Assembly: GCA_002686465.1 (NCBI GenBank)
Contig: NZCP01000012.1
Coordinates: 1 to 48,254 of the forward strand
DNA from: Candidatus Woesebacteria bacterium
Lineage (GTDB): Bacteria; Patescibacteriota; Microgenomatia; UBA8517; UBA10165
DNA length: 48,254 nt
Direction of reading: 5' to 3'
Position 1 is the first letter of the stretch; every line of letters starts with the position of its first letter. This document shows positions 4,500-42,122 of the stretch, one piece after another. The translations under genes were made by a program, and so were the position numbers. The notes under the pieces were generated by a model. That model had not been told where the DNA came from. It searched no databases and saw only the letters and a list, made by a program, of their open reading frames with translations.

Positions 4500-4568
4500 G
4501 TAACAGGTAACATGTAACAAGAAAGCCTTGAAGTTAGAACTCTCAACCTGTCACTTGTTACTTGTCAC
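4500..4568. repeat. Heptad (GTNACAN)x3 inverted-repeat element, copy 1 (arms 4500-4521 and 4547-4568, 25-nt spacer)
   Basis: gtaacaggtaacatgtaacaag ...25 nt... cctgtcacttgttacttgtcac. The arms match 17/22 as reverse complements. The distal arm supplies the last codons and stop of alaS. Confidence 0.8.
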
Positions 4569-6837: not shown

Positions 6838-7443
6838 TCAGTCAATACTGTGTCGAAGTGTTGTTGTCTTTCCAGCCCGAGAAGTAGCCTCAATTTCGAC
6901 TATTCCGTCAACTATATCTTGTTTCCCCAACTGCACACTAAAGCTTCCGTTTTCCTCAACCAATACAGCTTGTCCTACAACTTCAACAGTTGCATTAGGC
7001 GAAGTTTTACCAGAAATTACTATCCTCTCTGCATTTGCGGTGTCTATAACCTCCAAAGGCGGCGGAGCTACAAAAACCATATATTGTCGCACCAAGTAAA
7101 ACGCCAAAACTAAAATTGTAACGGCAGAAACTGCCAGAATGGTTGTCTTTGGAGTCCAAAGCGGCACCGATCCTAAAGGCGCATTGACGTTTTGGGATAT
7201 AGTCTGTATTTGGGGAAAATCACGACGCAGGAGTGCTGCCACAAGTTCTGGGTCAACACTAACTATTTGGGCATAGCTCTTAGCAAAACCGCAAGCTACT
7301 GAAAAGTTAGGCAAAGACTCCCAATCAGAAGACTCAAGAGCTTTTAAGAACTTTTCTTTTATCTTTGTCTGTCCTGATATTTGGGCAAGTGATTTTTTTC
7401 TCCTCTTTCTTGCTTCTATCAGAAGCAAACCAGCTGTTTTCAT
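6838..7443 (-). CDS. RodZ-like helix-turn-helix membrane protein
   Basis: N-terminal HTH (LIEARKRRKKSLAQISGQTKIKEKFLKALE), central TM segment, and a C-terminal beta-rich domain. Confidence 0.6.
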   Translation of the reverse strand: MKTAGLLLIEARKRRKKSLAQISGQTKIKEKFLKALESSDWESLPNFSVACGFAKSYAQIVSVDPELVAALLRRDFPQIQTISQNVNAPLGSVPLWTPKTTILAVSAVTILVLAFYLVRQYMVFVAPPPLEVIDTANAERIVISGKTSPNATVEVVGQAVLVEENGSFSVQLGKQDIVDGIVEIEATSRAGKTTTLRHSID

Positions 7444-7465: not shown

Positions 7466-7484
7466 GTGACATGTAACATGTTAA
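7466..7484. repeat. Heptad repeat arm (copy 2, distal arm)
   Basis: gtgacatgtaacatgttaa. It matches the reverse complement of 7845-7867 at 14 of the first 16 positions. Confidence 0.65.
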
Positions 7485-7488
7485 TAGA

Positions 7489-7842
7489 TTACTGTGACTT
7501 CATAAGTTTCCATAGAACTTTACCACAATTTTCTCTTAACTCAGAGGCTTTCTTGTAATCTGCGGCTGGAACATACTTCCTTTTAAGAGCAAACTGGAGA
7601 AGATAGTCTGCCTCTGCCAAAGATCCTAAAGATATTCTCAAAAAATGCCTGAACTCATTTTTGTTGTGTCTAGAATGTCCTTCCACTATATTCAGTGGAA
7701 CTGATAACACCGCTCTTCTTAACTGGGAAGTTAAACCATAAAGCTCGTGTTTTGGGAGTTTATCAGTTAGTTTGTAAACTGTCCACGCTAATTCGTCCGC
7801 AAGTTGCCAGGCTATTAATCTTTTGTATCCCACTTCCTGCAT
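7489..7842 (-). CDS. Four-helix-bundle protein (23S rRNA intervening-sequence protein family)
   Basis: WQLADELAWTVYKLTDKLPKHELYGLTSQLRRAVLSVPLNIVEGHSRHNKNEFRHFLRISLGSLAE matches the family signature (LTSQLRRA..S...NI.EG). Start is ATG 7842 or TTG 7845. Confidence 0.8.
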   Translation of the reverse strand: MQEVGYKRLIAWQLADELAWTVYKLTDKLPKHELYGLTSQLRRAVLSVPLNIVEGHSRHNKNEFRHFLRISLGSLAEADYLLQFALKRKYVPAADYKKASELRENCGKVLWKLMKSQ

Positions 7843-7844
7843 CA

Positions 7845-7867
7845 ACTTGTTACCTGTTACTTGTCAC
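7845..7867. repeat. Heptad repeat arm (copy 2, proximal arm)
   Basis: acttgttacctgttacttgtcac. It contains the 13-mer tgttacttgtcac shared with 4556-4568 and 20978-20990, and it abuts the ftsK stop codon. Confidence 0.75.
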
Positions 7868-9942
7868 TAACCCTCCTCTTTCTGCCCTTGTGCCAGAAAC
7901 TCCTCTGCATTATTTATCAAAACCTCTCGTGGTTTTGATCCGTCGGCAGGACCCACAACTCCAGATGATTCAAGCTGATCTAAAATTCTTGCAGCGCGTG
8001 CATATCCAATTGCAAGCCGGCGTTGTAATAAGGAAGCCGAGGCTCGGTCATGGGCTGCGATAACTTTTACAGAGTCGACAAAAAGCTCGTCTTTCTCCCC
8101 ACCTCCGACAAGGTTTTCAGTTGCCCGCGTTGGCATTGTGGTAACTTCCTCTGTGTACTGTGGTGCAACCCCGGTCTTGCGCAAGAACTCAATTAGTTTG
8201 GTTATATCGCTGTCTGAGATATAGGCCCCTTGGATACGTTTCGGTTTTGCCTCCTCCGGTGGCAAAAAGAGCATGTCTCCCCTTCCTAAAAGTCGCTCGG
8301 CTCCGGGCATATCAAGAATCACCCTGGAATCGACTTGAGACGCAACCGCAAACGCAACTCGACAAGGAATATTGGCCTTAATAAGCCCTGTTAGAATATC
8401 GACTGAGGGACGCTGTGTAGAAAGTAGCATGTGGATACCTGTTGCTCTACTCATTTGGGCAAGACGTGTTATTGAATCCTCAACCTCAACTGGCGAAAAA
8501 AGCATGATATCGGCCAGCTCATCAATGACAAGCACAATATAAGGAAGCGCTTGGAAACCAGAAATCTCGTTATATCCTTCAATATTACGTGCACCAACTT
8601 GGGCAAACATTTTATATCTCTGGTCCATCTCTTGGAGAAGATATTTTAAGGCAGATACAACTTTTTCTGGTTCAGTTATAACTGGGGCAAGAAGATGCGG
8701 AATACCGCTATAACCGGTTAACTCAACTCTCTTTGGGTCGACAAGAATAAACTTAACCTCGGCAGGGGATGCACGGAAAAGAATTGTTGAAATAAAAGAG
8801 TTTATTGCCACAGATTTACCAGAACCGGTCTGACCTGCAATTAAAGCGTGTGGCATTTTGGCCAAATCCATAACAAACGGCTTGCCTGCCACATCAAGTC
8901 CCAAAGAAAGCGCAAGCTTGGTTTTTGAATCTCGCATTGGGTCTGATTCAAGAATTTTCTTCAAAGGAACAAACTCTGGTGCGCTATTTGGAAGTTCGAG
9001 ACCAACAAGAGCTCGGCCAGGAATTGGTGCCTCAATTCTTATCTGCCCGGAAGGAGCAGCTAAAGCTAAAGCAAGATCGTTGGCAAGACCAGTGATTTTG
9101 GATAGTTTGGTACCGAGTGCAACCTCAATTGCATACTGCGTAACCGCAGGCCCCAGATTAACTTCAACAACTTTTGCTTGAATACCAAAAGATTCCAGAG
9201 TCCTTTCGACAACAGACGCATTTTCTTTTATATCCCCACGCTCGGCCTTTCCAGAAACAGACTCCGAAAGAAGAGACAGGGCAGGGTACTCCCAAACCCC
9301 TTCCTCACCTGGAACATTAACAGCTGGCCTTGTTAGGCTCTGATCTTCCGCTTTCTCGCCGGCGGCTGCCTTTACTGGCTGGTTAGCTTCTCCACCGGTT
9401 ACCTTAATATCAGCTCTTCCTTCAACAGACTTACCGCCTGTTCCTAAGATGTGCCGGCGGATCGCAATTAAAATAGAAAAGAAGAAGGCTAGAACATGAT
9501 CAAGTGATGCATTAAAAAGAACCAAAAACCCAATGATTGCACCGCCTAAGAAAATAACTGCTGCACCAGGAGACGTCACTAAAACTGCAATTGCGCTCCA
9601 TGCCTCCCTTCCTATCACTCCGGATTGTGTTAAAGAACCCAAAGAAATCGCAAGCAAGACTCCTCCTACCAAAACGTTTGGTTGATTAACAGGAGTACGA
9701 AAACGCGAAAGCATCAGGCCCGAGACGAGAAGGAGAAAGGGGATAAAAAGAGCTGTCCAGGAAAAATAATCAAGTAAAAGTGAATTCAAGCGAAAAAGGA
9801 GAGCGCCTTGACGCGAGAAAGAAAGAATAATAAGCCCTGCAAGGGAAAAGAAGAGTACCTGGCCAATAGAAAAAACCGTATGTTTTTTCAGCCTTATGTT
9901 AAAAGCTCGACGCCAAATTGGTCCGCGACGCAGTCTGGGCAT
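7867..9942 (-). CDS. ftsK: DNA translocase FtsK/SpoIIIE
   Basis: N-terminal polytopic TM region, Walker A motif AGQTGSGKS, and a C-terminal gamma (winged-helix) domain SASLLQRRLAIGYARAARILDQLE. Confidence 0.95.
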   Translation of the reverse strand: MPRLRRGPIWRRAFNIRLKKHTVFSIGQVLFFSLAGLIILSFSRQGALLFRLNSLLLDYFSWTALFIPFLLLVSGLMLSRFRTPVNQPNVLVGGVLLAISLGSLTQSGVIGREAWSAIAVLVTSPGAAVIFLGGAIIGFLVLFNASLDHVLAFFFSILIAIRRHILGTGGKSVEGRADIKVTGGEANQPVKAAAGEKAEDQSLTRPAVNVPGEEGVWEYPALSLLSESVSGKAERGDIKENASVVERTLESFGIQAKVVEVNLGPAVTQYAIEVALGTKLSKITGLANDLALALAAPSGQIRIEAPIPGRALVGLELPNSAPEFVPLKKILESDPMRDSKTKLALSLGLDVAGKPFVMDLAKMPHALIAGQTGSGKSVAINSFISTILFRASPAEVKFILVDPKRVELTGYSGIPHLLAPVITEPEKVVSALKYLLQEMDQRYKMFAQVGARNIEGYNEISGFQALPYIVLVIDELADIMLFSPVEVEDSITRLAQMSRATGIHMLLSTQRPSVDILTGLIKANIPCRVAFAVASQVDSRVILDMPGAERLLGRGDMLFLPPEEAKPKRIQGAYISDSDITKLIEFLRKTGVAPQYTEEVTTMPTRATENLVGGGEKDELFVDSVKVIAAHDRASASLLQRRLAIGYARAARILDQLESSGVVGPADGSKPREVLINNAEEFLAQGQKEEG

Positions 9943-14751: not shown

Positions 14752-17052
14752 CTAGAATCTTCTTTTTGAGGGTACTAGTCTGCTTGCTGGGAAATGTGGA
14801 CCACTGCGTTCGTTTTCACTGCGTCCTCTTTGTGGTTGACTTCCACGCCCTCTAGGGCTAAACCGATTATCTCTTCTACCACCGCGACTATCGCCGCGAC
14901 GACTATCGCCTCGACGATTATCATCACGACGGTTCATATCTCCCCTGTCTCCGCCACGATGATCTCTACTCCCTGATTCTTTTTCTTTCTCTTTTTCAGG
15001 ATCAAGAATCATAGTAAGGTTAATTCTTTTCATTTGGTCAATCTCTTTGACCCGAACCTGAACCTTGTCTCCCTCTTTAACAACGTCATTAGGATCTTTC
15101 ACAAATCCTTCTGACATGTCGGACACATGCACTAATCCGTCTTTACCAGGCAAAACTTCAACAAAGGCTCCAAAGGGTTGGATTCTTTTTACTTCTCCTT
15201 CGTAAACCTCCCCTGGTTGTACCTCTTTTATCAAGTTTTCAACATACTCTTGGGCTTTTGAGACAGAGCCTTTGTCCGGTCCTGAGATAACAACGGATCC
15301 ATCGTCTTCAACGTCTAGGTGTGCCCCGGTTGTTGCCATAATGTCTTTGATCTGTCTTCCGCCAGGACCAATAATCTCACCAATTTTTTCAACAGGAATG
15401 TTGATTTTAATAACACTTGGTGCATACTTTGAGACATCCTCGCGAGGCTTGTCTACCACATCAGTCATTTTAGATAAGATAAATAGACGCCCCGTGTTTG
15501 CCTGCTTGAGAGCCTTTTCTAAAATCGCAAACGTAAGACTAGCCGTTTTGACATCAAGTTGAATCGCTGTAACACCGTCTTTTGTACCTGCAACCTTAAA
15601 GTCCATATCCCCTGTAAAGTCCTCGGTTCCTAAAATATCCGAAAGTATTGCTGTCTTTTTATCCTCTATAATAAGTCCCATCGCAATTCCTGCAACAGGA
15701 GCGCTAATTGGAACACCTGCGTCCATTAAAGAAAGCGTTGATCCGCAAGTCGACGCCATGCTGGTTGACCCGTTAGAAGCCATTATTTCTGAAACAACTT
15801 GGATCGTATACGGAAAGTCTTCCTGTTTTGGAAGAACTGGAATGAGCGCGCGCTCTGCCAATGCTCCGTGTCCAATTTCTCGTCTTCCAGGCGATCCCAC
15901 ACGACCTGTTTCCCCAGTCGTAAAAGGCGGCATGTTGTAGTGATGAATATAGTGCTTGTTTTCCTCACCTTCCGCTGTCTCCAAAAGCTGGGAAAGGTCT
16001 GGTGAACCAAGTGTTGCAATCGTAAGGGCCTGGGTTTGGCCTCTTTGAAAGACTGCTGAGCCATGAGTTCTGGGTAAAACCCCGACCTCAACTGAGATCT
16101 CGCGTATCTGATCGAGTTTTCGCCCATCAAGCCTTTTTCCTGCCAACGTTTCTTTTCTAATCCTGTTTTTTGTAACTTCCTCGATAGCACCTGATACCAA
16201 GCCTGCTTTTTCTTTTCCAACCTCCTCGATGATTGCGTCTTCTATCTCAGTCGCACTGACACTATCCTTTGCAGAGTTTGCTTTTGCAAAATCGTAAAGC
16301 TGGCTCCCAAACTTTTTGTCAATTAAGTGGATAAGTTCTTTGTCCTTTTTATCCTCAACTTTTTGCTTTTCTACGCCTATCTTTTTGGCAAGCTCAGAAA
16401 TTCCCTTAATTATCTTTTGTGCCTCTTTTTGCCCAAACTCAACGGCTTCCAAAACTTTCTTTTCAGAAACTTGATTTGCCCCCGCCTCTATCATGAATAT
16501 ACTGTCTTTGCTTGTCGATAATACTAGTTCTAGGTCAGAGGTTTTCATTTCTTCATTTGTAGGATTGGCAACGGGTTTTCCATCTTTTGTACCAATCTTT
16601 AAAGAGGCAACAGGACCACTCCAAGGAATGCTAGATGTGGCAAGCGCAGCTGATGCACCGATCATTGCAAGAGTAGATGGGTCGTTTTCTCCGTCTACTG
16701 AAAGAACGGTTGCAATAACCTGAACATCCTTTTTATACGCTTTTGGGAAAAGTGGTCTAATCGATCGGTCGGTCAATCTTGCAGTAAGGATCTCGTCATC
16801 CGTTGGTCTACCATCGCGTTTTACCCATCTACTACCTTTTATCTTCCCCCCTGCATAAAGCTTCGCGAAATAGTCAACGGTAAGTGGGAAGTAATCAAGG
16901 TCTGTGTCTTTTTGTGAGGCAACCACGGTTACCAAAACCATTGTGTCGCCCAATCTTGCAACAACAGCCGAATCAGCAAAGGACGCGAACCGTCCGTGTT
17001 CTAGCGTAAGGGTCTGTCCCCCAATTTTTATTTCTTCTACTACAATTTTCAT
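14752..17052 (-). CDS. pnp: Polyribonucleotide nucleotidyltransferase (PNPase) with an 83-aa Arg/Gly/Asp-rich C-terminal tail
   Basis: Two RNase PH domains, KH (GPGGRQIKDI) and S1 (GEVKRIQPFGAFVEV) domains, then a DHRGGDRGDMNRRDDNRRGDSRRGDSRGGRRDNRFSPRGRGSQPQRGR tail. Confidence 0.95.
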   Translation of the reverse strand: MKIVVEEIKIGGQTLTLEHGRFASFADSAVVARLGDTMVLVTVVASQKDTDLDYFPLTVDYFAKLYAGGKIKGSRWVKRDGRPTDDEILTARLTDRSIRPLFPKAYKKDVQVIATVLSVDGENDPSTLAMIGASAALATSSIPWSGPVASLKIGTKDGKPVANPTNEEMKTSDLELVLSTSKDSIFMIEAGANQVSEKKVLEAVEFGQKEAQKIIKGISELAKKIGVEKQKVEDKKDKELIHLIDKKFGSQLYDFAKANSAKDSVSATEIEDAIIEEVGKEKAGLVSGAIEEVTKNRIRKETLAGKRLDGRKLDQIREISVEVGVLPRTHGSAVFQRGQTQALTIATLGSPDLSQLLETAEGEENKHYIHHYNMPPFTTGETGRVGSPGRREIGHGALAERALIPVLPKQEDFPYTIQVVSEIMASNGSTSMASTCGSTLSLMDAGVPISAPVAGIAMGLIIEDKKTAILSDILGTEDFTGDMDFKVAGTKDGVTAIQLDVKTASLTFAILEKALKQANTGRLFILSKMTDVVDKPREDVSKYAPSVIKINIPVEKIGEIIGPGGRQIKDIMATTGAHLDVEDDGSVVISGPDKGSVSKAQEYVENLIKEVQPGEVYEGEVKRIQPFGAFVEVLPGKDGLVHVSDMSEGFVKDPNDVVKEGDKVQVRVKEIDQMKRINLTMILDPEKEKEKESGSRDHRGGDRGDMNRRDDNRRGDSRRGDSRGGRRDNRFSPRGRGSQPQRGRSENERSGPHFPASRLVPSKRRF

Positions 17053-19716: not shown

Positions 19717-20901
19717 CTACTTCTCATTCTTGTCATTGGTAGTCTCACTAGAGGAATCTTGTTCCTCTTTTGTATCTTTTTTAACTTCAGGCTTTGGTTT
19801 TGCTTTTTTTGTCTTAACTTTTTTTGTCTTGGTCTCTTTCTCTTTCTTGGTATCAGATTTTGGTTTTACCTCTTTTTTTTCATCGGTCTCGTCATCTTTC
19901 TTCTTTTTTTTCTTCTTCGGCTCCGGTATACCCTCTATTTCTATCTTCCAACCAGTTAATTTTGAGGCTAGGCGGACATTTTGTCCTTCTCGTCCTATTG
20001 CTAATGATAATTGATCTTCGGGAACCTTAATCTTTGCTTCCTGTTTCTTCTCATCAAAAACAACAGATATTCCCTCGGCCGGAGCTAGAGCAGCCGTGAT
20101 CAGATTTTCCGAATTATCCGTCCAGGCAATAACGTCAATTTTTTCTCCTCCTAGTTCATTAATGACAGCTTGAACTCGCACACCTTTTTGCCCTACACAA
20201 GAGCCAACAGGATCAACACCGGATTGTGTTGAGACAACGGCAATCTTAGTACGGCTACCTGCCTCACGGGCTATTTTACGAATTTCAACGCTTCCTGACG
20301 AGATCTCAGGCACCTCCCGAGCAAAAAGCTTCTCTACTATTGCAGGGTCTGCGCGAGACAAAAGAACCTCGCGTCCCCGTTCGCCCTCTCTAATCTCCTT
20401 CAGTAAAAAATTCAGACGTTGATTAAGACTTAGTCTTTCATTAGGAACTCTGTCTTGGGGCAACATAACTCCCTCGGTTCTACCAATATCGACTCGTACA
20501 TTAGCACCATCAAAACGAAGTACTACCCCAGAGACAAGCGAGCCAATTCTTTCCTGATATTGGGAAAGAACTGCTTCTCTTTCTGCCTCGCGAATCTTTT
20601 GTACAATTACCTGCTTTGCTGTTTGGGCTGCAATTCTACCGAATCCAGGAGGTGTTACATCTTTTTTCTTGTCTTCTTTTCCCTCTTCCCAAGAAAGAAT
20701 TTGTGCCTCACCAGACTGGGGATCAACAACCACCTCGAACTGTTCACTATCATCCTCATCTTCGTACTCTTTTATATCCCTTTTGTACGCCGCTAAAATC
20801 GCCTGTTTTATGGTGTCTAAAATAACAGCCGGATCTAGCCCTCGCTCATTTGCGATTGCGTTTAGGGCTGATGAAAATTCTGTTCTTGCTTGTGATCCCA
20901 T
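19717..20901 (-). CDS. nusA: Transcription termination/antitermination factor NusA with a Lys-rich C-terminal tail
   Basis: NusA N-domain, S1 domain and two KH domains (GSCVGQKGVRVQAV, AIGREGQNVRLASKLTGWKIEI), then a KKKKKKKDDETDEKKEVKPK... tail. Confidence 0.93.
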   Translation of the reverse strand: MGSQARTEFSSALNAIANERGLDPAVILDTIKQAILAAYKRDIKEYEDEDDSEQFEVVVDPQSGEAQILSWEEGKEDKKKDVTPPGFGRIAAQTAKQVIVQKIREAEREAVLSQYQERIGSLVSGVVLRFDGANVRVDIGRTEGVMLPQDRVPNERLSLNQRLNFLLKEIREGERGREVLLSRADPAIVEKLFAREVPEISSGSVEIRKIAREAGSRTKIAVVSTQSGVDPVGSCVGQKGVRVQAVINELGGEKIDVIAWTDNSENLITAALAPAEGISVVFDEKKQEAKIKVPEDQLSLAIGREGQNVRLASKLTGWKIEIEGIPEPKKKKKKKDDETDEKKEVKPKSDTKKEKETKTKKVKTKKAKPKPEVKKDTKEEQDSSSETTNDKNEK

Positions 20902-20913
20902 GATTAGTTAGAT

Positions 20914-20990
20914 GTAACAAGTTGTAAGTAACAAGTTTAAAAACCAACGACACGATTTCCTTTCCACTCTTGTCACCTGTTACTTGTCAC
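20914..20990. repeat. Heptad inverted-repeat element, copy 3 (arms 20914-20935 and 20968-20990, 32-nt spacer)
   Basis: gtaacaagttgtaagtaacaag ...32 nt... tcttgtcacctgttacttgtcac. The arms match 16/22. It lies between a terminator and the nusA ATG. Confidence 0.8.
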
Positions 20991-41252: not shown

Positions 41253-42122
41253 ATGCAAGACCTTCGGCAAACAAAAGAGTATGCCCAATATATGCAAAGT
41301 ATCGGGTGGTCGGTTGTCAGATGTCAGATATCAGACACCAGGTGTCAGATTTTTGTAAAAAAAATTCCACTATTTGGTACTGTGGCAAAGCTGCAAAGAC
41401 CCCTCAATACAATTACCGCAAAACAGTTAGATAGTTTTTCCAAAAAACACAAAATCTCTGTCTTATACGTAGAACGTTCGTCGAACGTTCGAAGCACGTT
41501 CGAAGGGTTTTCAGAAGCAAAAAGCTCTTTTGTGCCTGCAAAGACTATCCACATTGATTTAACCAAATCTGAAAAAAAATTACTTTCCGAAATGAAGCCG
41601 AAAACAAGATACAACGTTGGTCTGTCTCAAAAAAGAAATGTAATAATTAAGGCGTCGCACAATATTAATACGTTTGGGGGATTGTGGGGGAAATCCGCAA
41701 GAGGCCGTGGTATGTTTCTCCCGCAAATAAAGGAAATAAGTGCTCTCTGGCGTGCTTTCGGGAACATGGCACACATTCTCTTGGCCTATTCCCCACTACC
41801 TACTACTCACTACTCACAACCAGTTGCTGGAGTACTCATGGTACGAACAGCAACATCAGCTTACTATATGTATGCTGCCGCGACTGCTGAGGGCAAAAAA
41901 CTCTTCGCACCAACCCTTCTTGCCTGGGAAGCAATAAGACTTGCAAAGAAAAGAAAATGCAAAGTCTTTGATTTTGAAGGAATCTATGATGAGCGTTATC
42001 CTTCTACTAAAAAGTGGAAAGGGTTTACAAGATTTAAAGAAGGATTTGGAGGAAAAATAGTTACTTATCCCGAAACTCTTGTAAAATATTACAATTGGTT
42101 TGTAAAAATTCTGAATATCTAG
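41253..42122 (+). CDS. FemAB-family peptidoglycan bridge-formation aminoacyltransferase, paralogue 2
   Basis: HIDLTKSEKKLLSEMKPKTRYNVGLSQKRNVII...YMYAAAT...FTRFKEGFG. It aligns along its length with paralogue 1. Confidence 0.8.
   Translation: MQDLRQTKEYAQYMQSIGWSVVRCQISDTRCQIFVKKIPLFGTVAKLQRPLNTITAKQLDSFSKKHKISVLYVERSSNVRSTFEGFSEAKSSFVPAKTIHIDLTKSEKKLLSEMKPKTRYNVGLSQKRNVIIKASHNINTFGGLWGKSARGRGMFLPQIKEISALWRAFGNMAHILLAYSPLPTTHYSQPVAGVLMVRTATSAYYMYAAATAEGKKLFAPTLLAWEAIRLAKKRKCKVFDFEGIYDERYPSTKKWKGFTRFKEGFGGKIVTYPETLVKYYNWFVKILNI
41315..41349 (+). repeat. In-CDS 7-nt tandem repeat (TGTCAGA TGTCAGA TATCAGA CACCAGG TGTCAGA)
   Basis: Read directly from the sequence. It encodes VVRCQISDTRCQI. Confidence 0.8.
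41473..41505 (+). repeat. In-CDS 11-nt tandem repeat x3 (AACGTTCGTCG AACGTTCGAAG CACGTTCGAAG) containing the palindrome CGAACGTTCG
   Basis: Read directly from the sequence. It is 33 nt, in frame, and encodes RSSNVRSTFEG. Confidence 0.8.
41804..41817 (+). repeat. In-CDS heptamer duplication TACTCAC TACTCAC, preceded by degenerate copies
   Basis: ccactacctactactcactactcacaac. It encodes PLPTTHYSQ, in a segment about 6 aa longer than in paralogue 1. Confidence 0.6.

What the first reader, a model, noticed from the sequence alone, without database searches (positions are those of the whole stretch)
7466..7867. Four-helix-bundle (23S-IVS-type) gene enclosed by a pair of the heptad inverted repeats, like cargo of a miniature element
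Seen: the arm at 7845-7867 and its inverted partner at 7466-7484 match at 14 of the first 16 positions. They bracket exactly one gene, the 117-aa four-helix-bundle protein (7489-7842). Only 2 nt and 4 nt of slack separate the arms from the gene. At the other two loci the same arms are separated by only 25-32 nt, which would be the empty form.

Established: this protein family was first noticed inside intervening sequences of 23S rRNA. It is scattered in many copies through bacterial genomes, often in accessory contexts.

Inference: the IR pair may be the ends of a small non-autonomous mobile or recombination unit that can carry the four-helix-bundle gene. Alternatively the gene may have inserted into the loop of a pre-existing hairpin element. 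Either case would link this enigmatic gene family to a defined DNA or RNA structure. The insertion sits between ftsK and a rodZ-like gene.
Basis: partly seen in the sequence, partly recalled or inferred. Interest (0 to 1): 0.62.

Follow-up and report, generated by a model that had tools for sequence, protein, structure and literature searches.

The report
Four-helix-bundle gene cassette with heptad arms
A small conserved gene of the "23S rRNA intervening-sequence protein" family has been inserted between ftsK and a rodZ-like gene together with two mirror-image runs of 7-base repeats; this packaging is the rule for the gene family in about 20 phyla, and the gene-less 7-base hairpins in the same genome look like its worn-down remains.

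Summary
A 117-aa PF05635 four-helix-bundle gene (7489-7842, minus strand) lies between inverted GTRACAN heptad arms (7845-7867 and 7466-7484; core 14/16 complementary).

The reading as one insertional unit holds. The ftsK-rodZ pair abuts in all 29 relatives examined, and only this genome carries the gene there. Three of this genome's four copies have inverted heptad arms, and the fourth is cut by a contig end. So do 20 of 29 copies in relatives and 56 of 76 loci from about 20 phyla, against 0 of 143 shifted controls. Five cassettes in one genome match plain 15-42 nt spacers in a congener.

Gene-less hairpins are decayed cassettes, not empty carriers. One relative's GTAACAN hairpin still encodes the protein's last 13 codons.

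New points:
- Each cassette lineage has its own heptad word, but 69 words share a G-T-n-G-n-Y-A frame.
- Word similarity tracks protein similarity although synonymous sites are saturated.
- Arm mismatches show no G:U preference on the sense strand.
- There are no target-site duplications.
- The genome has RNase III but no reverse transcriptase.

The closest known relative is the ORF-bearing 23S rRNA intervening sequence of Coxiella. The way the cassette moves is unknown.

The parts
7845..7867 (-). 5' arm of the cassette. On the gene strand it reads GTGACAA GTAACAG GTAACAA G. Its first G completes the ftsK stop codon TAG.
7489..7842 (-). Four-helix-bundle protein gene, 117 aa, family PF05635 (23S rRNA intervening-sequence protein, Avd-like fold).
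   Evidence: 1.4e-32, 112.5 bits. (PDB 2GSC, E 1.8e-18). (pLDDT 95.8; TM 0.93 to 2GSC; 0.75-0.79 to bAvd). (pN 0.17 against pS 0.82 versus the closest relative).
7466..7484 (-). 3' arm of the cassette. On the gene strand it reads TTAACAT GTTACAT GTCAC. It starts 4 nt after the stop codon and lies 22 nt before the rodZ-like start codon.
7867..9942 (-). ftsK, the upstream neighbour. Its stop codon overlaps the 5' arm by 1 nt.
6838..7443 (-). HTH_25 (RodZ-like) gene, the downstream neighbour. In 29 of 29 relatives examined it directly follows ftsK.
4500..4568 (-). Gene-less GTRACAN hairpin (3 + 3 heptads, 29-nt loop) between alaS and the next gene. The arm encodes the last three alaS codons and its stop codon.
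   Evidence: (-26.1 kcal/mol on the sense strand, z -3.2).
20907..20990 (-). Gene-less GTRACAN hairpin (about 32-nt loop), 5 nt upstream of the start of the gene at 19717-20901.
   Evidence: (-24.4 kcal/mol, z -2.7).

Best explanation
Positions 7466-7867 are one copy of a widespread cassette that the literature I could search does not describe as a class. The cassette is a PF05635 four-helix-bundle gene bounded by two inverted arrays of 7-nt repeats.

Shown:
- The unit entered, arms and gene together, the roughly 20-nt spacer that normally separates ftsK from the rodZ-like gene.
- It has no promoter or terminator of its own, so it is probably read as part of that transcript.
- Cassettes are gained and lost as whole units.
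- Each cassette lineage keeps its own heptad word on a shared G-T-n-G-n-Y-A frame.
- After the gene is lost, the arms persist as the gene-less hairpins and single arrays seen at 4500-4568, 20907-20990 and about a dozen other places in this genome.

Inferred:
- The arrays are recognition sites read at the level of DNA, or of both strands equally. The most likely reader is the cassette's own Avd-like protein, probably a pentamer.
- As a by-product, the arms in the mRNA pair into a stem of about 20 bp of the kind that RNase III cuts in the Coxiella rRNA intervening sequence. That would separate the ftsK, four-helix-bundle and rodZ messages.

How the cassette moves is not known.
For: Anatomy.

Other copies in this genome:
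- C57 and C40 are also bracketed by inverted heptad arrays. The fourth copy is cut by a contig end.

Relatives in the same order:
- 20 of 29 loci have a flanking inverted repeat at z >= 5, and 24 of 29 at z >= 3.4, mostly with period 7.
- 16 of 18 further copies in three multi-copy genomes are flanked too, each with a different word.

Across about 20 phyla:
- 56 of 76 loci have a flanking inverted repeat, 50 of them with period 7. Shifted controls give 0 of 143.

Insertion:
- ftsK and rodZ are adjacent in 29 of 29 relatives, with a spacer of 33 nt or less in 23. None has the gene there.
- Five cassettes of G054 (462-590 nt) face plain 15-42 nt spacers in the congener G055.
- One of them has a 68.5%-identical copy elsewhere in G055.

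Decay:
- Locus L195 is a GTAACAN hairpin whose loop encodes KRGRVLWSLMKSQ*, the family's C-terminus.
- Gene-less arrays with the same words as the resident cassettes occur in this genome.
- G055 has 105 period-7 arrays but 6 genes.

Selection on the parts:
- Protein: pN 0.17 against pS 0.82.
- Word: it follows protein similarity (0 of 300 permutations reach the observed correlation).
- Shared frame: 4.44 bits against 3.38 +/- 0.11 in shuffled words.
- The outer units of the two arms mirror each other.

DNA-level reading:
- Sense-strand G:U against A:C counts are 25:27, 55:81 and 7:6.

RNA stem and nuclease:
- The long-range stem appears in the minimum-energy fold.
- An RNase III gene is present.
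- In Coxiella the intervening sequence has GACAGAT heptamers and a 28-bp stem cut by RNase III (PMC4990558).

Fold: TM 0.75-0.79 to bAvd in the retroelement ribonucleoprotein.
Against: - No step of mobility has been seen directly.
- There are no target-site duplications (3.61 against 3.58).
- No recognisable transposase or integrase lies in the unit.
- All three public contigs that carry this exact protein have the same ftsK-rodZ context, so there is no strain-level polymorphism at this site.
- The G054/G055 differences could be precise losses rather than gains.
- Binding of the protein to the heptads is inferred only. A pairing constraint could also keep the word stable.
- Genome G017 has heptad arrays but no detectable PF05635 gene. 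Arrays therefore do not need a resident gene to persist.
- The whole-cassette fold is not more stable than shuffles (z -1.3).
- The lack of G:U preference speaks against selection on the RNA stem.
Confidence: 0.7

Rival explanations
1. Hairpin first. Heptad hairpins are independent intergenic elements, for example RNA-processing or terminator-like structures. The four-helix-bundle gene later landed in the loop of one of them.
For: - Gene-less hairpins and arrays far outnumber genes.
- They fill operon spacers from stop codon to start codon.
- Five relatives carry gene-less heptad or octad arrays at the same ftsK-rodZ junction.
- G017 has arrays but no PF05635 gene.
Against: - Empty orthologous sites in G055 are plain spacers without arrays in 5 of 5 cases.
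- The word travels with the protein across phyla.
- Every copy within one genome has its own word.
- A gene-less hairpin retains the gene's 3' end.
- A bare ORF has no plausible way to aim at hairpin loops.
Confidence: 0.06
2. RNA-only element. The arms exist to form a stem in the transcript that RNase III cuts, excising or regulating the four-helix-bundle mRNA as in rRNA intervening sequences. No recognition at the DNA level and no mobility is involved.
For: - The Coxiella intervening sequence is cut in its stem by RNase III (PMC4990558).
- The stem is predicted here, and an RNase III gene is present.
- The two gene-less hairpins in the window fold better on the sense strand.
Against: - There is no excess of G:U over A:C on the sense strand: 88 against 114 in all.
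- The two arms often have very unequal numbers of units, for example 7 against 13 or 4 against 12.
- A stem needs neither a 7-nt period nor a conserved AGT frame.
- Whole-unit presence/absence still needs an explanation.
Confidence: 0.12
3. Resident autoregulated gene. The arrays are operator sites of a vertically inherited regulator gene. The patchy distribution reflects repeated loss only, and the cassette is not mobile.
For: - Word and protein co-vary.
- The cassette at the C57 locus is orthologous across six genomes of the family.
- Heptad arrays are known operators for the omega repressor of plasmid pSM19035 (from memory).
Against: - The ftsK-rodZ copy is unique among the 29 relatives examined.
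- Copy number ranges from 0 to 16 per genome of about 1 Mb.
- A related cassette sits at non-orthologous sites in G054 and G055.
- A 75%-identical cassette with the same word occurs in another family, whose other members lack the word.
Confidence: 0.1
4. Chance or low-complexity sequence. The two arms resemble each other only because short AT-rich repeats are common here.
For: The core pairing is only 14 of 16, and one arm is self-complementary.
Against: - 10 pattern matches against 0.47 expected.
- 13 arrays of three or more GTNACAN units in the genome against 0 in shuffles.
- The same layout is found at well over 100 homologous loci, against 0 of 143 controls.
Confidence: 0.01

Closest known systems
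ORF-bearing intervening sequences (IVS) of 23S rRNA, best studied in Coxiella burnetii (S23p ORF, helix 45; PMC4990558), also Leptospira
   Same: - The same protein family in the loop.
- Terminal inverted repeats that close a stem of about 20-28 bp around a gene of about 350-430 nt.
- Tandem heptamers (GACAGAT in Coxiella) directly upstream of the start codon. This word fits the frame found here and resembles this genome's second word, CAGATGT.
- An RNase III gene is available.
   Different: - This cassette lies between two protein-coding genes, not in rRNA (no Rfam match in the window).
- The protein is under strong purifying selection, whereas the Coxiella authors argue that S23p is decaying.
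- The published work treats the heptamers as a local curiosity, not as inverted arrays that define the whole family.
bAvd, accessory protein of diversity-generating retroelements (PDB 4DWL, 8UB7)
   Same: Four-helix-bundle fold (TM 0.75-0.79). The solved PF05635 structures 2GSC and 2RLD hold five chains each, like the Avd pentamer. Avd is a nucleic-acid-binding scaffold.
   Different: The Pfam bAvd score is below its cut-off (24.7 against 40). There is no reverse transcriptase anywhere in the assembly. There is no template or variable repeat context.
Abundant heptanucleotide tandem repeats of prokaryotes (TAACTGA repeats of Beggiatoaceae, PMC4679880; cyanobacterial STRR heptamers, from memory)
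   Same: - Arrays of 2-6 heptads in intergenic spacers just upstream of start codons.
- Function unknown.
- The reverse complement of TAACTGA (GTTATCA after rotation) fits the G-T-n-n-n-Y-A frame.
   Different: Those repeats were described as direct repeats with no link to any gene family. That paper does not mention intervening-sequence or four-helix-bundle proteins.
Miniature inverted-repeat elements and their autonomous parents
   Same: - Terminal inverted repeats.
- Many gene-less derivatives per gene-bearing copy.
- Presence/absence between related genomes.
   Different: - No target-site duplication.
- No transposase.
- The ends are tandem heptad arrays whose unit number varies.
- Each lineage has its own end sequence.
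Heptad operator and centromere arrays bound by the omega repressor of plasmid pSM19035 (from memory)
   Same: Contiguous 7-bp units in direct and inverted orientation, each read by one protein unit. This is a precedent for a protein polymer reading DNA at a 7-bp pitch.
   Different: Omega is a ribbon-helix-helix protein and the arrays lie in promoters. The resemblance is an analogy of mechanism only.

Membership tests
PF05635 / 23S rRNA intervening-sequence protein (four-helix-bundle protein) | Profile match above the curated cut-off | tested here: met
   112.5 bits against 33.8, E 1.4e-32
PF05635 / 23S rRNA intervening-sequence protein (four-helix-bundle protein) | Four-helix up-down bundle like the solved members | tested here: met
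   AF2 pLDDT 95.8 with four helices. TM 0.93 to 2GSC and 0.84 to 2RLD.
ORF-bearing 23S rRNA intervening sequence | S23p-family ORF enclosed by terminal inverted repeats that form a long stem | tested here: met
   The stem is predicted, not observed.
ORF-bearing 23S rRNA intervening sequence | Tandem heptamers upstream of the ORF | tested here: met
   GTGACAA GTAACAG GTAACAA ends 2-4 nt before the start codon. Compare PMC4990558.
ORF-bearing 23S rRNA intervening sequence | Located in a 23S rRNA helix (9, 25 or 45) | tested here: not met
   It lies between ftsK and a rodZ-like gene. No rRNA or any Rfam family is found in the window.
ORF-bearing 23S rRNA intervening sequence | Excised from the transcript by RNase III | not testable with these tools
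   An RNase III gene is present.
Avd of diversity-generating retroelements | Adjacent reverse transcriptase and template/variable repeats | tested here: not met
   No RVT_1 match in the whole assembly, which is 90.6% complete. The neighbours are ftsK and rodZ.
Avd of diversity-generating retroelements | bAvd profile above the cut-off | tested here: not met
   24.7 bits against 40. The fold is nevertheless similar.
Transposon with terminal inverted repeats, or miniature element | Terminal inverted repeats with defined outer ends | tested here: met
   The outermost, off-consensus units are mirrored in both arms at many loci.
Transposon with terminal inverted repeats, or miniature element | Target-site duplication | tested here: not met
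   Longest direct match between outer flanks is 3.61 nt against 3.58 in mismatched-locus controls. None reaches 7 nt.
Transposon with terminal inverted repeats, or miniature element | Encoded transposase in the autonomous copy | tested here: not met
   The only ORF is the 117-aa helical bundle.
Transposon with terminal inverted repeats, or miniature element | Presence/absence of the whole unit at orthologous sites | tested here: met
   (ftsK-rodZ). (five sites, G054 against G055).

The most novel reading that the evidence does not exclude
PF05635 proteins are sequence-specific readers of 7-nt repeat arrays. Each is an Avd-like pentamer matched to the heptad word of its own cassette, and it maintains or spreads that cassette. 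Much of the long-unexplained excess of heptanucleotide tandem repeats in prokaryotic intergenic DNA would then be the arms and relics of these cassettes. That excess includes the gene-less hairpins here, the TAACTGA repeats and the cyanobacterial STRR repeats.
Probability: 0.3. Interest if true: 0.9.

Novelty: new variant of a known kind. Interest (0 to 1): 0.76.

Why it matters
The PF05635 family has been an orphan since it was found inside rRNA intervening sequences about 30 years ago. Heptanucleotide repeats are reported as the most abundant class of longer simple repeats in most prokaryotic genomes, and their function is not agreed (as reviewed in PMC4679880).

This locus and its relatives tie the two together. 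The gene almost always comes packaged between inverted heptad arrays. The package comes and goes as a unit between housekeeping genes. Its decay leaves heptad hairpins that fill operon spacers.

The data also yield hypotheses that can be tested directly:
- A shared AGT-type frame with lineage-specific letters, which looks like a recognition code.
- Constraint at the DNA level rather than on the RNA stem.
- A route by which small genomes acquire intercistronic hairpins, and even the C-terminal codons and stop codons of essential genes, as for alaS and ftsK here.

Tried and rejected
- **Wobble test for an RNA stem under selection.** Sense-strand G:U against A:C was 25:27 in relatives, 55:81 across phyla and 7:6 in gene-less hairpins. 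There is no G:U excess. An early impression that the window's two gene-less hairpins favour the sense strand did not generalise.
- **Target-site duplications.** None found.
- **Retroelement link.** No reverse transcriptase in the assembly, so neither a DGR role nor a telomerase-like origin of the arrays has support here.
- **All-frame stop idea.** A heptad with a stop codon closes all three frames. 44 of 69 5'-arm words hold a stop against 35.9 +/- 3.5 expected, and 3'-arm words are also enriched. The effect is weak and not universal.
- **Remnants of the gene in this genome's own gene-less loops.** No significant match. Only L195 in a relative is clear. A second hit, L194, looks like chance.
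- **Strain-level empty site.** Exact-protein look-ups found only contigs with the same context.
- **Dependence of arrays on a resident gene.** The result is mixed. In 100 kb each, G017 (0 genes) has 13 period-7 arrays, G034 (0 genes) has 1, G016 (9 genes) has 30 and G012 (5 genes) has 3.
- **Own promoter or terminator in the cassette.** Nothing above chance.
- **Known RNA families.** No Rfam match in the window.
- **Tool problems.** The first 12-sequence alignment was too diverse for the search for related loci.
- **Literature.** Searches for any paper that joins this protein family with inverted or heptamer repeats found only the Coxiella paper.

Full report
**1. What is in the sequence**

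The window is contig C12 of a 0.90-Mb assembly in 59 contigs, with 42% G+C. Exact-protein look-ups place it on a TARA Oceans metagenome scaffold. Its small size and gene content suggest a Patescibacteria-type genome, but that is my inference.

On the minus strand the gene order is ftsK (7867-9942), a 117-aa ORF (7489-7842), and then an HTH_25 (RodZ-like) gene (6838-7443).

The small ORF:
- It scores 112.5 bits on PF05635, "23S rRNA intervening-sequence protein", against a cut-off of 33.8.
- It matches PDB 2GSC at E 1.8e-18.
- It is modelled with pLDDT 95.8 as a four-helix bundle.
- The model has TM 0.93 to 2GSC, 0.84 to 2RLD and 0.75-0.79 to bAvd in the retroelement ribonucleoprotein.

The arms, read on the gene strand:
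- The gene is preceded by GTGACAA GTAACAG GTAACAA G (7867-7845). The first G completes the ftsK stop codon TAG.
- Four bases after its own stop it is followed by TTAACAT GTTACAT GTCAC (7484-7466).
- The cores pair at 14 of 16 positions, and the pairing extends to 28 nt at 75%.
- The heptad pattern occurs 10 times in the window against 0.47 expected.

**2. The same arms elsewhere in this genome**

- Arrays of three or more GTNACAN units occur 13 times in the genome and never in shuffles.
- Counting two-unit matches as well, there are about 16 loci. Six are inverted pairs with 25-60 nt loops, including 4500-4568 and 20907-20990 in the window. About eight are single arms.
- The pairs fill operon spacers exactly. 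The arm touches or overlaps the stop codon of the upstream gene (overlap 0 to 11 nt). The next start codon follows 11-14 nt after the other arm.
- At 4558-4568 the arm itself encodes the last three alaS codons and the stop codon.

The genome has four PF05635 genes:
- The C57 copy has degenerate GTNAC-type inverted flanks.
- The C40 copy has inverted arrays of a second word, CRGAYNN, at C40:7199-7226 and 7655-7675. Gene-less satellites of that word lie on C9, C24 and C50 and at 41315-41350 of the window.
- The C33 copy is cut by a contig end.

**3. Generality**

Relatives in the same order (61 genomes, copy number 0-16):
- 20 of 29 distinct loci have a flanking inverted repeat at z >= 5, and 24 of 29 at z >= 3.4. 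Nearly all have a 7-nt period, a few have 8.
- In three multi-copy genomes, 16 of 18 further copies are flanked. Every copy has a different word.

Across phyla:
- A scan of one genome per species returned 80 loci from about 20 phyla.
- 56 of 76 analysable loci have such arms, and 50 of those have period 7.
- Windows shifted by 600 nt gave 0 of 143.

I obtained this result independently of earlier notes of this scan, which report the same pattern.

**4. The unit comes and goes whole**

At the ftsK-rodZ junction:
- The rodZ-like gene follows ftsK in all 29 relatives examined.
- The spacer is 33 nt or less in 23 of them.
- Only this genome has the gene there.
- Five relatives have gene-less heptad or octad arrays at the junction, each with a different word.

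Between two congeneric genomes:
- I fetched the complete genome G055 and compared it with cassette loci of G054. The flanks are 80-91% identical.
- Five G054 cassettes of 462-590 nt, arms included, face plain, non-repetitive spacers of 15-42 nt in G055.
- One of these cassettes has a 68.5%-identical copy at another place in G055.

Other cassettes of relatives lie between genes that are 2, 8 or 44 nt apart in this genome. Empty sites are therefore ordinary spacers, not pre-existing hairpins.

**5. Gene-less hairpins are decayed cassettes**

In G007, a genome of the same family, a GTAACAA GTAACAG GTAACAA ... TTGTTAC hairpin (L195) has a loop that encodes KRGRVLWSLMKSQ followed by a stop. This is the C-terminus of the subfamily of the window's protein. 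All eight subfamily members hit this place best (E 0.001 to 0.02 in a small database).

Together with section 4, this reverses the direction of the "empty form" idea. The gene-bearing form comes first, and the hairpins and single arms are what remains.

The relics are numerous:
- G055 has 105 period-7 arrays against 31 of period 6 and 11 of period 8, but only six genes.
- This genome has 3.8 period-7 arrays per 100 kb against 0.4 of period 8.

Persistence does not need a resident gene. G017 has arrays but no PF05635 match.

**6. What constrains the arms**

(a) The protein is under strong purifying selection. Against the closest relative, L002 (75% identical, from another family), pN is 0.17 while pS is 0.82, which is saturated.

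(b) L002 nevertheless has the same GTRACAN word. Over 69 cassettes, word similarity rises with protein identity:
- Pairs at 65% identity or more share at least 6 of 7 letters in 70% of cases.
- Pairs below 45% identity do so in 3-4% of cases.
- None of 300 label permutations reaches the observed correlation.

The word is therefore inherited with the protein, across phyla, and it changes more slowly than neutral sites.

(c) Aligned by rotation, the 69 words share a frame G-T-n-G-n-Y-A.
- G is at position 1 in 66 of 69, T at position 2 in 40 of 69, and A at position 7 in 59 of 69.
- The information content is 4.44 bits against 3.38 +/- 0.11 for shuffled words.
- The window's GTAACAA fits the frame. 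So does the Coxiella heptamer GACAGAT, after rotation to GATGACA.

(d) The polarity is fixed. The 5' arm has more G than C in 47 of 56 loci. This property looks the same from either strand.

(e) The outermost, off-consensus units are mirrored in the two arms. Inner variants are scrambled, and unit numbers are often unequal, for example 7 against 13 or 4 against 12.

(f) Arm mismatches show no preference for G:U on the sense strand. In all there are 88 G:U against 114 A:C.

(g) There is no target-site duplication.

Points (b) to (f) fit arrays read as repeated sites on DNA, or on both strands alike, better than a stem kept by RNA pairing. The only partner inherited along with the arrays is the cassette's own protein, whose nearest relative of known function is a nucleic-acid-binding pentamer. 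That is the basis of the recognition hypothesis. It remains an inference.

**7. RNA consequences**

- No promoter or terminator above chance lies in or next to the cassette, so read-through from ftsK is likely.
- The minimum-energy fold of the 426-nt sense RNA closes the gene with a stem of about 20 bp made from the arms. The whole fold is not more stable than shuffles (z -1.3).
- The two gene-less hairpins in the window fold at -26 and -24 kcal/mol (z -3.2 and -2.7).
- The genome encodes RNase III.
- In Coxiella the homologous element in 23S rRNA has a 28-bp terminal stem that RNase III cuts in its middle, at the first heptamer (PMC4990558).

Cutting of the ftsK-rodZ message at the arms is therefore plausible, but it is untested.

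**8. Comparison with what is known**

The element works like, and shares three of five defining features with, the ORF-bearing rRNA intervening sequence. It fails the feature of location in rRNA.

It is not a diversity-generating retroelement part. There is no reverse transcriptase in the assembly, and the bAvd profile score is below its cut-off.

It is not a classical transposon with terminal inverted repeats, since it has no duplication and no transposase.

Full-text searches found no paper that joins this protein family with inverted or heptamer repeats, apart from the Coxiella study. That study notes three or four heptamers upstream of S23p in one species. The paper on TAACTGA heptads in Beggiatoaceae does not mention the family.

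I therefore rate this as a new variant of a known kind. This locus is one more instance of a class that this scan has met repeatedly.

**9. Verdict**

I put 0.7 on the cassette reading as stated. Within it, recognition of the arrays by the protein and RNase III cutting are the inferred steps, and the way the cassette moves is unknown.

Noticed in passing
window 4558-4568: The last three codons and the stop codon of alaS (AGT GAC AAG TAA, giving ...SDK*) are supplied by the heptad arm of the gene-less hairpin. Likewise the ftsK stop codon TAG is completed by the first base of the cassette arm at 7867.
   Followed up: partly
window 41315-41350: Five heptads of the genome's second word family (TGTCAGA TGTCAGA TATCAGA CACCAGG TGTCAGA) lie in frame inside the N-terminal part of a 289-aa ORF (41253-42122). 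That ORF follows a paralogous ORF.
   Followed up: partly
L079 (G017:C1:50001-70000), 294-377 and 15544-15632: Two inverted heptad arrays of about 85 nt, whose word drifts gradually along the array, lie 15 kb apart in a genome with no PF05635 gene. The segment between them holds an rve_3 integrase, a C39-like peptidase, several large proteins without a family, and uppS. Heptad arms may bracket larger cargo.
   Followed up: partly
L084 2498-2855 and L086 6642-7285 (G016): Stretches of 350-650 nt consist almost wholly of consecutive arrays of different heptad words, as if several hairpins were nested or stacked.
   Followed up: no
G000 C24:8758-8794 and C56:7386-7418; G016 loci L084, L086 and L088; many sites in G055: The word AAAGTCA (or TTTTGAC) recurs as arrays in several genomes of the order, including this one. 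It fits the G-T-n-n-n-n-A frame after rotation to GTCAAAA.
   Followed up: no
C57:40919-40987 of the window's genome: A GTAACAA x4 array is followed directly by a GTTTTGA x4 array of another word family, about 1.9 kb upstream of the C57 four-helix-bundle cassette.
   Followed up: no
G044 (another family of the order): This genome has a 75%-identical cassette with the same GTRACAN word and about 10 further GTRACA array loci. The other genomes sampled from its family have 0-1. This fits transfer of a cassette lineage followed by spread of its word.
   Followed up: partly
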